A stretch of DNA of 64,000 nt from the human T2T-CHM13v2.0 reference genome, Homo sapiens. Every line of letters begins with the position of its first letter. Position 1 is the stretch's first letter. The translations under genes and the position numbers were made by a program. The stretch is taken from assembly GCF_009914755.1 (NCBI RefSeq), contig NC_060941.1; one strand, 5' to 3'. Positions 41,967-43,893 of this stretch are shown piece by piece. The notes under the pieces were generated by a model that worked only from the letters and a program-made list of their open reading frames with translations, was not told the origin of the DNA and searched no databases.

Positions 41967-42137
41967 TATCCTTTGTGTTATGTTACTGACTGGTGTATAT
42001 GCCACTACCAGGCCAGAGTCATTAAACTGATCCACGCTTCCCAGGACTTTAGGAGGTTGTTCAGGAAAACGGGTAGCTCTGAAGTGTTCCGAAAAGATGC
42101 ACAAATATAGCCCTAGAAACAATGTTATTGTCCATTC
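41967..42137 (-). pseudogene. ABCA10: Formerly coding leader of the 205-nt exon: open frame EWTITLFLGLYLCIFSEH...QRI (ancestral TM1 and start of ECD1), in frame with the MNKM start
   Basis: No stops in frame (ORF 41895..42146); resembles EW-TM1 exons of ABCA6/8/9; acceptor TCTCTTTTGTGTGCTGGAG|GAA. Confidence 0.85.
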
Positions 42138-43752
42138 CTCCAGCACACAAAAGAGAAATGAGCCATGTTATAACGTGGTCCAGACCAGTGAGAAACATCC
42201 AAACACATTTTTAAGGCAGAATGTATTGCCATTGAGCATGACTTCATTTCAGTCTGTAATTTTTTTCTGCCCAAATTAATATCTACCTTTTAAAGAAAAA
42301 AACACCCTTTCAAAAATACACAACTTTTGAGATAATATCAACAATTGCAATCAATCTTAACCCAGTGATTTAGCACCCCTATTAGTGGGACTGCCATTGA
42401 TTTTATGCCCTCATATTTGAAGCAACGTAAGTATATGGCATCACACAGAAGATACTCTTGCCAAAAATATTTAACCAGAATTGGATCCTGCTTTTAGATC
42501 CAGCTCACTGCTTACAAAAAATATAGATGATAAAGGGATGACTTAAATGACAGCATGGAGAGGCAATCAGATAAAAAGAGAACATGGAATATTCAACAGG
42601 ATAACTAGTTTTGTCTCATTGGTTCCTGAACAAATCAACCTTAAAAGACATTTTGGGGGAAATTTGGAAAATTGAATTTGGCCATGGAACTAGATGATAT
42701 GGAATTATTTTTAATTTTGTGTAGTGGGATAGTGGTAATGTAGGGAACCAAGTTCTTAATTTTTTGAGATACTAAAATATTTAGCCATTACATATATTTT
42801 AGGGAAGAAGAGGAGACAGAGAGATGAAGCAAAGATGGCAAGATGTTAACAGCTGTCAAATCTGGATGGTGGATGTATAGGTGTTCATTGTACCAATATT
42901 TTCACATTTCTGGATTGACATACTTTTTTTAAATTCTAGTGAGTAATAAATATAGATGTATCCTTCTTCAATATACGAAGCAAAATATTTGATCGAACTG
43001 CTTCGGAAGCTATTGCAGAAATTTAAAAGGATGATATAAATCCTGTTAGCTCCCACTGAAATGGTACTGACTATTTCTGAACAGACTGCAATCTCTACAT
43101 GGTCAAGGCAGATCCAGTTATATCTCATAGTAACACAAAGCAATGTCTTAATATTCATGTCAGCATACAAGAAACTCAACAGAATGCAAAGGTATTGACA
43201 ATCTGTGATCTTATTCCATGAAACCATTCTATGTTTACAAAAAGCACGGCTTTGAAGAGATTCCAAAAAAGTTTGCAAATTTTTACTCATAGATATTTTC
43301 CCAGCCTTACCAAATAACATGACATTAATCGAAATGTCCCCAAATAGTATCAGGGTTTGCCCACGTAAAAATCTATTTTATTTTGCCTAGCTTATCTTTC
43401 CCCTGGCTGTCCCTGCCCCCAACACAGAAGTTAGCTAAGAGTAAATCAGAATGACTCTGAGATTTGAATGCATTAATTATGTGGAAAATGGCTGGTTCTA
43501 TTCTGCAAAAGATTATTTTTCAGGAGCTGTCAGATGAGCTTTTTAGTTAATTTCACATTTGACACAAATATTATCCTATTTTGCAAAATATATATCGTTT
43601 TGCAGTATTTAGAATCTCAAATCAACTAGCCAGTATGATAATTAAAAATCAGAATTTATAAACAAGAAAAGTAATAAAAATGGCATAATACTATATGGTG
43701 GATTTTCATTTATTAATTATGGATATATATATATATATATAGTGAATCATAC

Positions 43753-43893
43753 CAATAAACTCTCTTTTTATTCTCCATTTTTTAAGAAAATTCTTGTACA
43801 GAAGAGCCTGAATTTGTTGACGCACGCTTATCTCTTTTTTAACCATTTTGTCCTGTTCATTAACAGGGTAAAGTAAATATTGCAGAGCAATAG
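43753..43893 (-). pseudogene. ABCA10: Leader exon (141 nt) containing the ancestral start ATG (43846-43844) and the frameshifted N-terminus [31 protein letters not shown]
   Basis: Strong polypyrimidine acceptor TTTTTTCCCCTAG|CT, donor TTG|GTATGA; ALL.KN.LKKWR.KR is the ABCA-family N-terminal motif. Confidence 0.9.

What the first reader, a model, noticed from the sequence alone, without database searches (positions are those of the whole stretch)
41967..43846. The ABCA10 5' leader hides the ancestral N-terminus, disconnected by a 2-nt slip
Seen: from ATG 43846 the exon reads [31 protein letters not shown] and ends after 94 nt (AGA GAG TTT ATT G|GT). The next exon opens in phase 0 with EWTITLFLGLYLCIFS and stays open into MNKMAL. 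Known, from memory of paralogues: ABCA6 begins ...[21 protein letters not shown], a 32-codon first coding exon followed by TM1. Adding one AG to the AGAGAG run gives AGA GAG AGT TTA TTG = RESLL and restores an 89-residue N-terminal extension. Inference: an AG-repeat slippage removed the first cytosolic helix and TM1 from the main ORF, so the protein may be mis-topologised or the gene may be decaying. The otherwise stop-free relic suggests a recent lesion.
Basis: partly seen in the sequence, partly recalled or inferred. Interest (0 to 1): 0.9.

Follow-up and report, generated by a model that had tools for sequence, protein, structure and literature searches.

The report
ABCA10 lost its start by frameshift
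Human ABCA10 carries a two-base loss that cuts its original start codon, first helix and first membrane span off from the rest of the protein, which explains why this lipid-transporter gene looks oddly short and fits other signs that it is decaying.

Summary
On the minus strand, ATG 43846 opens 31 codons plus one base before donor GT 43752. The next exon (42137-41933) is open in phase 0 from its first base into the RefSeq start at 41966.

ABCA6, ABCA8 and ABCA9 each have 96 nt from start codon to donor; ABCA10 has 94, with one 2-nt gap just after AGAGAG. A colobine monkey ABCA10 fragment (P0001) matches the human exon at 42 of 44 residues and then reads RESLL like ABCA6, so the loss is derived and arose after the Old World monkey split.

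The relic has coding-like dN/dS against the paralogues: 0.24-0.40, versus 0.24-0.28 for the annotated CDS. The RefSeq Met aligns with internal residue 90 or 91 of the paralogues. No GT/AG pair rejoins the full exon in frame.

Two points need correction. Absence of stops says nothing about how recent the lesion is (P = 0.70-0.93). The lost dinucleotide cannot be named from these data.

The missing TM1/IH1, the uORF at -265 and the pseudogene-like evolution are each already published. I did not find the two-base cause that links them. Interest is moderate.

The parts
43844..43846 (-). Ancestral initiator ATG of ABCA10, now upstream ATG -265 of the RefSeq mRNA. Its context is strong (A at -3, G at +4).
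   Evidence: It aligns with the start codons of ABCA6, ABCA8 and ABCA9. PMC7700387 lists it as uATG 11, with strong context, a high TIS score and conservation in placental mammals.
43753..43846 (-). Relic of the ancestral first coding segment: 94 nt instead of 96, encoding the pre-TM1 cytosolic helix motif ([11 protein letters not shown]).
   Evidence: It matches the colobine orthologue P0001 at 42/44 residues, counting 15 in-frame upstream codons.
43759..43765 (-). Site of the 2-nt loss: the AGAGAG run (43765-43760) followed by T 43759. The alignment gap falls between 43760 and 43759.
   Evidence: Alignment A1. Past this point the human exon still reads KESLL in the other frame, the same as the RESLL ending of ABCA6 and P0001.
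43768..43770 (-). TAA in the frame of the main ORF. It limits the upstream open frame of the annotated CDS to 62 codons and excludes ATG 43846.
   Evidence: E*KESLL.
43751..43752 (-). Splice donor GT of the relic exon, homologous to the paralogues' donors.
41967..42137 (-). 57 stop-free codons in the frame of the main ORF, annotated as 5'UTR. They are the relic of TM1 plus the first part of extracellular domain 1, including two N-X-S/T sequons (NDS, NIT) at positions shared with ABCA6 and ABCA8.
42090..42134 (-). Hydrophobic core of the relic TM1 (WTITLFLGLYLCIFS, mean Kyte-Doolittle 1.83 over 15 residues).
   Evidence: The paralogues ABCA6 and ABCA9 have a hydrophobic 19-mer at residues 30-48.
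42061..42063 (-). TGA that ends the 56-codon uORF opened by ATG 43846 (-97 to -95 relative to the main ATG).
   Evidence: It matches the uORF at -265 to -95, 171 nt, in PMC7700387.
41964..41966 (-). RefSeq start codon of ABCA10. It is an internal Met codon of the family (the IMNK motif, invariant M in the 5-paralogue alignment). Its context is only adequate. The Met three codons downstream has a strong context.
42112..42114 (-). Hypothetical alternative acceptor (AG 42114-42113, exon starting at 42112) that would put ATG 43846 back in frame, at the cost of 8 TM1 residues. It is not annotated.
   Evidence: Neither of the 2 RefSeq transcripts uses it.

Best explanation
ABCA10 originally began like its neighbours ABCA6, ABCA8 and ABCA9. 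Its first coding segment was 32 codons, encoding the short cytosolic helix before TM1. Its second exon followed in phase 0, encoding TM1 and the start of the first extracellular domain. On the lineage to humans, after the split from Old World monkeys, two bases were lost at the 3' end of the first coding segment, within or next to an AG run. This much is shown. The old start codon keeps a strong context but now opens a 56-codon dead-end uORF. The only long ORF left starts at an internal Met, homologous to residue 90 of ABCA6. The annotated 1543-aa protein therefore lacks the pre-TM1 helix, TM1 and about 35 residues of extracellular domain 1, including two conserved glycosylation sequons. This too is shown. 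The rest is inferred. Most scanning ribosomes should start at the old ATG or at other strong upstream ATGs, so little of the annotated protein should be made. The uORF stop lies 129 nt upstream of the next exon junction and could trigger nonsense-mediated decay. Any protein that is made has no signal-anchor to place its first extracellular domain in the lumen, so it is likely mis-inserted or degraded. This lesion is a good candidate for an early, possibly fixed, step in the published relaxation of constraint on human ABCA10.
For: Sequence and frames. First coding segments are 96/96/96 nt in the paralogues against 94 nt here, and exon 2 has equal length and phase. There is a single 2-nt gap after AGAGAG. 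Colobine ABCA10 fragment P0001 is identical at 42/44 residues and then reads RESLL. Relic dN/dS against ABCA6, ABCA9 and ABCA8 is 0.40, 0.38 and 0.24, versus 0.28, 0.24 and 0.24 for the annotated CDS. In sliding 86-codon windows, 6, 5 and 17 of 34 CDS windows have an equal or higher ratio. M1 aligns with residue 90, 91 and 90 of the paralogues. All 14 upstream ATG positions and the 171-nt uORF equal those published from the Ensembl transcript, so the state is not peculiar to CHM13. No GT/AG pair rejoins the full exon in frame, and 2 of 2 RefSeq transcripts start the CDS at 41966. [quoted passage not shown] Human ABCA10 has many homozygous loss-of-function alleles, mostly truncated transcripts and relaxed selection, and is described as 'evolving as a pseudogene' (PMC7674697).
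Against: Only one orthologue was seen, and only as a 90-aa partial gene model of poor quality. That model skips the 27 TM1 codons and runs into the intron, so the colobine N-terminus may itself be imperfect. No ape sequence could be reached, so the date within the last 25-30 million years (a recalled figure) is open, as is fixation in humans. The rest of the human reference CDS is intact: 1543 codons with no stop. RefSeq keeps the gene as protein-coding. Antibody data quoted in PMC7700387 report protein in 40 of 45 tissues. A rare missense variant was associated with fasting triglycerides (PMC9167281). These points argue that the truncated product may still do something. Ribo-seq coverage of the uORF is rated low in PMC7700387, so its translation is not shown. 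Direct sequence mapping of the relic onto solved ABCA structures failed. The IH1/TM1 labels rest on the papers and on hydropathy.
Confidence: 0.82

Rival explanations
1. Functional remodelling rather than decay. The truncated 11-helix protein starting at 41966 is made and works, and the old start codon has been taken over as a regulatory uORF that tunes its translation.
For: The downstream CDS is intact in the reference. The upstream ATG has a strong context. There is a triglyceride association of a missense variant (PMC9167281), and antibody-based protein detection is quoted in PMC7700387.
Against: PMC7674697 reports ten loss-of-function variants with many homozygotes, a pNull of 0.99, relaxed selection on the human branch and mainly truncated transcripts. 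No signal-anchor precedes extracellular domain 1. The conservation of the ATG in placental mammals is explained more simply by its having been the true start.
Confidence: 0.12
2. The full or nearly full N-terminus is still produced by another route: an unannotated acceptor 25 nt into exon 2, a +1 ribosomal frameshift, polymerase slippage in one of the A runs, or non-AUG initiation at the in-frame TTG at -174 just before the EW codons.
For: The +25 acceptor has a pyrimidine-rich tract and restores the frame. The main frame is open back to -186 and includes all of TM1.
Against: None of the 2 RefSeq transcripts uses the +25 site, and it would remove 8 of about 15 core TM1 residues. The TTG has T at -3. 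No known frameshift signal was seen. None of these routes was tested with transcript or ribosome data.
Confidence: 0.05
3. The 94-nt state is the original state of ABCA10 in all species, meaning the gene was born without TM1, and the resemblance of the leader to paralogue N-termini is a leftover of the duplication about 100 million years ago.
For: None beyond the human sequence itself.
Against: The colobine orthologue reads RESLL, the 96-nt state. The relic's dN/dS is as low as that of the CDS, whereas a ratio near 1 would be expected after so long without constraint.
Confidence: 0.02
4. The loss is an assembly error, or a polymorphism with a common intact allele in people.
For: No population data could be consulted here.
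Against: The upstream ATG positions and uORF length are the same in CHM13 and in the Ensembl transcript analysed in PMC7700387. The RefSeq and UniProt protein length of 1543 aa has stood since 2003, according to reviews.
Confidence: 0.04

Closest known systems
N-terminal module of the ABCA6-like transporters ABCA6, ABCA8 and ABCA9 (same 17q24 cluster)
   Same: The exon structure is the same: an ATG exon followed by a 205- or 208-nt exon in phase 0. Exon 1 is 58-68% identical and exon 2 is 43-51% identical. The KNFLKKWR motif, the EW exon start, the hydrophobic TM1, two shared sequons and the IMNK motif are all present.
   Different: ABCA10 has 94 nt rather than 96 nt in the first coding segment, so the module is not joined to the ORF.
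Colobine (Pygathrix nigripes) ABCA10 exon, NCBI hypothetical protein H8959_019620, partial (P0001)
   Same: It is 42/44 identical to the human exon translation, including 15 in-frame codons upstream of the ATG, and 38/41 identical over the later part of exon 2 by my count.
   Different: It ends RESLL where the human ends REFI plus one base. The model omits the 27 TM1 codons for unknown reasons.
Upstream ORFs catalogued in ABCA 5'UTRs (PMC7700387)
   Same: This is their uATG 11 and uORF 5 of ABCA10 (-265 to -95, 171 nt): strong context, high TIS score, conserved in placental mammals.
   Different: The paper treats it as a regulatory 5'UTR element. The words 'N-terminal', 'ancestral' and 'paralog' do not occur in its text. 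Here it is shown to be the displaced original start codon.
Transcribed human ABC pseudogenes such as ABCA17P (PMC2329642, listing and abstract only) and the proposal that human ABCA10 evolves as a pseudogene (PMC7674697)
   Same: It is a transcribed ABCA locus with a disabling lesion and relaxed constraint.
   Different: ABCA10 keeps a 1543-codon open frame and is annotated as protein-coding. The paper's case rests on polymorphic loss-of-function alleles in exons 5-36 and on truncated transcripts, not on this N-terminal lesion. 'N-terminal' and 'start codon' each occur 0 times in its text.

Membership tests
ABCA6-like full transporter (canonical TM1-ECD1-TM2-6 first half) | First coding segment of 32 codons ending in phase 0 and joined to the EW exon | tested here: not met
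   94 nt against 96 nt in ABCA6, ABCA8 and ABCA9. The frame from ATG 43846 stops at 42063.
ABCA6-like full transporter (canonical TM1-ECD1-TM2-6 first half) | Sequence homologous to the pre-TM1 helix and TM1 is present at the locus | tested here: met
   BLASTP E = 3e-12 and 2e-22 against ABCA6 exons 1 and 2. Hydrophobic core with Kyte-Doolittle 1.83.
ABCA6-like full transporter (canonical TM1-ECD1-TM2-6 first half) | TM1 is included in the annotated protein | tested here: not met
   The RefSeq CDS starts at 41966, and M1 aligns with residue 90 or 91 of the paralogues. PMC13161189 and PMC8508924 say the same.
ABCA6-like full transporter (canonical TM1-ECD1-TM2-6 first half) | The rest of the ORF is intact (two NBDs and so on) | tested here: met
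   1543 codons with no internal stop, 62-63% identical to the paralogues over about 1530 aligned codons. Domains were not scanned individually.
Unitary pseudogene (lineage-specific loss of a formerly functional gene) | A disabling lesion that is derived relative to an orthologue | tested here: met
   The colobine fragment has the 96-nt reading, but this is one orthologue, seen as protein only.
Unitary pseudogene (lineage-specific loss of a formerly functional gene) | The lesion is fixed in the species, and there is no functional product | not testable with these tools
   No population or ape data were within reach. Two references agree. The functional state is unknown.
Unitary pseudogene (lineage-specific loss of a formerly functional gene) | Relaxed constraint after the lesion | not tested
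   Reported for the human branch by PMC7674697. It cannot be measured from paralogues alone, because most divergence predates the lesion.
Regulatory uORF | Upstream ATG in good context, with a stop before the main ATG | tested here: met
   Context GACAAA|ATGG. 56 codons, with the stop at -97 to -95.
Regulatory uORF | Conserved as a uORF (not as CDS) in other species, and translated | tested here: inconclusive
   In the colobine the same ATG reads on into RESLL, the coding phase. Ribo-seq coverage is rated low in PMC7700387.

The most novel reading that the evidence does not exclude
Human ABCA10 could be a natural experiment in membrane-protein topogenesis. In this reading, a full-size ABCA transporter lost its N-terminal signal-anchor (TM1) through a 2-bp deletion, yet is still made from an internal Met and still works as an 11-helix protein. 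Its first extracellular domain would be carried across the membrane by TM2 acting as a reverse signal-anchor. The old start codon would be retained as a strong uORF that throttles its output. The reported triglyceride association would then reflect real residual function.
Probability: 0.1. Interest if true: 0.7.

Novelty: new member of a known kind. Interest (0 to 1): 0.4.

Why it matters

It also re-reads a 'conserved upstream ATG' (PMC7700387) as the displaced true start codon.

It adds a lesion present in both reference assemblies to the published case that human ABCA10 is decaying (PMC7674697). That case rests on polymorphic alleles.

In practice, it bears on how ABCA10 is annotated and modelled. 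It affects the choice of cDNA for functional work: a monkey-type N-terminus against the human one. It also affects how loss-of-function and association signals at this gene are read.

It is one more example of a familiar kind of event, not a new mechanism.

Tried and rejected
Orthologues. The protein word search only sees proteins of 0.55-1.75 times the query length, and I may not type spliced proteins. Full-length ABCA10 orthologues of apes, macaque, cow and others were therefore out of reach. Search 1, with the exon-2 peptide, examined 1 named candidate and dropped 1 unnamed one. Search 2, with P0001, examined 1 named candidate, which was P0001 itself, and dropped 3 unnamed ones. I left the third search unused because the only new length band (25-37 aa) promised almost nothing.

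The Atlas search with P0001 gave only unrelated clusters, with a best feature score of 0.83, in the range that shuffled proteins reach.

Mapping onto solved structures. phmmer of the exon-1 and exon-2 peptides against the PDB gave 0 hits and 2 chance hits (E = 0.29 and 1.7). A 5-paralogue profile of exon 2 gave 0 hits. A profile of exon 1 gave only a weak match (E = 0.1) to the segment before the first membrane helix of an ABCG23-like protein. That match is suggestive but not significant, and no ABCA1, ABCA3, ABCA4 or ABCA7 chain was hit.

Pfam. There were 0 families for the two relic peptides and for P0001. One chance hit (E = 0.11) appeared for ABCA6 exon 2.

Literature. Five full-text searches and passages from ten papers turned up no statement of the 2-nt cause. 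The original ABCA10 cloning paper (PubMed 12821155) is not held and may discuss the N-terminus. Supplementary tables of PMC7674697 (accessions, loss-of-function variants) and figure S5 of PMC7700387 were not opened, because supplements are closed. They could bear on orthologue lengths and on 5'UTR variants.

Rejected ideas. (1) Dating the lesion from the absence of stops. (2) Naming the lost dinucleotide, because the alignment allows AG or TC/CT. (3) Rescue by a nearby splice pair.

The crude hydropathy scan did not flag ABCA8's TM1 or ABCA10's homologue of TM2 at threshold 1.6. I therefore give no exact length for the stretch before the first helix of the annotated protein.
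Full report
What the sequence shows. ABCA10 lies on the minus strand. ATG 43846-43844 sits in the RefSeq exon 43893-43753, which is annotated as non-coding. It is followed by 94 nt up to the donor GT at 43752-43751. That stretch translates as [31 protein letters not shown] plus one spare base. The next exon, 42137-41933, read from its first base, is open throughout. It gives EWTITLFLGLYLCIFSEHF... and runs into MNKMALASFMK, whose first Met (41966) is the RefSeq start. 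In the phase imposed by the 94-nt exon, the frame ends instead at TGA 42063-42061, which makes a 56-codon uORF.

Comparison with the paralogues. In the RefSeq annotation of the same chromosome, the first coding segment is 96 nt in ABCA6, ABCA8 and ABCA9 and 102 nt in ABCA5. The second coding exon is 205 nt in ABCA10, ABCA6, ABCA8 and ABCA5 and 208 nt in ABCA9. I fetched these exons and aligned them. From the ATG to the donor, ABCA10 differs in length from ABCA6, ABCA8 and ABCA9 by one 2-column gap placed right after AGAGAG, 7 nt before the donor.

At the protein level, the ABCA10 exon-1 peptide is 65, 58 and 68% identical to ABCA6, ABCA9 and ABCA8. The exon-2 peptide is 51, 43 and 43% identical. 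Pairwise BLASTP against ABCA6 gives E = 3e-12 for exon 1 and 2e-22 for the 57 codons now called 5'UTR. The Met used as the RefSeq start is an invariant internal Met of the five-paralogue alignment. When the spliced proteins are aligned, it corresponds to residue 90, 91 and 90 of ABCA6, ABCA9 and ABCA8. Past the gap, the last codons of the human exon still read KESLL in the other frame, the same ending as the RESLL of ABCA6.

One orthologue. Full-length orthologues could not be reached with the tools allowed (see Tried and rejected). The word search with the exon-2 peptide did return one named protein of suitable length: a 90-aa partial 'hypothetical protein' of the colobine monkey Pygathrix nigripes (P0001). 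Its first 44 residues match the human exon translation at 42 positions, including 15 in-frame codons upstream of the ATG. That makes it ABCA10 and not a paralogue, since ABCA6 matches at only 20/31. After KRE it reads SLL where the human reads FI. So the 32-codon reading existed in the ABCA10 of an Old World monkey, and the human state is derived.

The model then jumps over the 27 TM1 codons to PPKVLGS... and ends by reading into the intron. It is a poor gene model, and I draw nothing from the jump. A second search with P0001 found only itself.

Was the relic coding, and how old is the lesion? I rebuilt the four coding sequences from the reference and compared codons by the Nei-Gojobori method. 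I used the two relic pieces separately and left out the codons after the gap. The relic (86 codons) gives dN/dS of 0.40, 0.38 and 0.24 against ABCA6, ABCA9 and ABCA8. The annotated CDS gives 0.28, 0.24 and 0.24. In each comparison, 6, 5 and 17 of 34 CDS windows of the same size have a ratio at least as high. The relic therefore evolved as coding sequence for most of the time since the paralogues separated.

That does not follow. Summed over the 264 relic sites, only about 11-12 single-base changes' worth of stop-making opportunity exists. The chance of no stop is therefore 0.93 at 0.6% lineage divergence and still 0.70 at 3% (the divergence values are recalled round numbers). The only dating evidence is P0001, which places the loss after the human-colobine split.

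The lost dinucleotide is also not fixed by the data. ABCA6 has four AG units where ABCA10 has three, which favours loss of one AG. But a Ser codon like that of ABCA8 (TCC), followed by loss of TC or CT, would give the same human sequence.

Can the frame be rescued? Both RefSeq transcripts use the same junction and start the CDS at 41966. A scan of all GT donors within 60-140 nt of the ATG, and of all AG acceptors from 80 nt upstream to 120 nt downstream of the annotated acceptor, found 2 donors and 7 acceptors. Five pairs are in frame, and none of them retains the full EW exon. The least damaging pair combines the annotated donor with an acceptor 25 nt into exon 2, which would remove 8 residues from the TM1 core.

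The frame of the main ORF is open upstream only to a TAA at 43770-43768. That excludes the ATG but includes all of TM1. The only near-cognate start before TM1 is a TTG with a poor context. These routes are possible, but nothing I could see supports them.

Consequences (inferred). The spliced leader has 14 upstream ATGs, four of them in strong context, including the old start. A 56-codon uORF is long for efficient reinitiation, and its stop lies 129 nt before the next exon junction. Little of the annotated ORF should therefore be translated, and the mRNA may be a target of nonsense-mediated decay.

The annotated protein begins inside the first extracellular domain. Its first 25 residues have no hydrophobic stretch of signal-peptide strength (best 9-mer Kyte-Doolittle 0.99). 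It has also lost two sequons that ABCA6 and ABCA8 share. Without TM1 as signal-anchor, the domain has no obvious way into the lumen.

What is already in print. A 2020 survey of ABCA 5'UTRs lists exactly this ATG (-265: strong context, high TIS score, conserved in placental mammals) and this uORF (-265 to -95, 171 nt, low Ribo-seq coverage). It treats them as regulatory elements. The words 'N-terminal', 'ancestral' and 'paralog' do not occur in its text (PMC7700387; section 2.6 and passages). All 14 of its upstream ATG positions equal mine, so the Ensembl transcript carries the same 94-nt state.

[quoted passage not shown] A 2020 evolutionary study makes several findings (PMC7674697, passages):
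- ABCA10 is absent from mouse, rat, rabbit and dog.
- It is a pseudogene in gorilla.
- In humans it is rich in homozygous loss-of-function alleles.
- Its human expression is mainly as truncated transcripts.
- It is under relaxed selection on the human branch.
- The authors conclude it is 'now evolving as a pseudogene'.

Yet the study counts the human, chimpanzee and bonobo genes as functional, and 'N-terminal' and 'start codon' each occur 0 times in its text. Other papers list ABCA10 among genes with common premature stops or homozygous knockouts (PMC4773809, PMC3868571, one passage each). Against a dead gene, a rare missense variant was associated with fasting triglycerides (PMC9167281, passages).

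Verdict. The finding is real, and its central interpretation is right. The three published oddities are the missing TM1/IH1, the unusually strong 'conserved' upstream ATG and the pseudogene-like evolution. A derived 2-nt loss at 43759-43765 ties them together. I did not find that link stated in five searches or in the passages read. The 2003 cloning paper and the supplements were not available.

It is a new instance of a familiar event, a frameshift that strands the start codon, and not a new mechanism. I rate interest at 0.4. The main open points are the date of the loss, whether it is fixed in humans, and whether any product of the locus still functions.

Noticed in passing
window 43723-43741: A perfect (AT) microsatellite of 9.5 copies begins 12 nt into the intron, just past the donor of the relic exon. 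It is a likely length polymorphism close to a splice site.
   Followed up: partly
window 61136-61455 versus 60918-64000: The first exon of the long ABCA10 transcript (NM_080282.4) lies wholly inside the last exon of ABCA5, on the same strand. This ABCA10 mRNA therefore starts within the ABCA5 3' end (annotation given with the finding).
   Followed up: no
P0001 (Pygathrix nigripes partial protein), residues 47/48: The monkey gene model joins RESLL directly to PPKVLGS, skipping the 27 codons that hold TM1, and ends by reading into the intron. In human there is no AG before the corresponding CCT. So either the monkey differs there or the model is an artefact.
   Followed up: partly
window 42112-42114: An AG with a pyrimidine-rich tract lies 25 nt inside exon 2. 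As an acceptor, it would put the old ATG back in frame with the main ORF while shortening TM1 by 8 residues.
   Followed up: partly
window 41955-41957: The second Met of the annotated protein (codon 4) has a stronger initiation context (A at -3, G at +4) than the annotated first Met (A at -3, A at +4).
   Followed up: no
window 43847-43891: The frame of the old ATG is open for all 15 codons upstream to the exon start (IALQYLLYPVNEQDK). This stretch is identical in the colobine fragment.
   Followed up: no
ABCA10 locus (position not determined): PMC3794087 reports an SVA-F element exonised as a cassette exon in an ABCA10 cDNA (passages). I did not locate it in the window.
   Followed up: no
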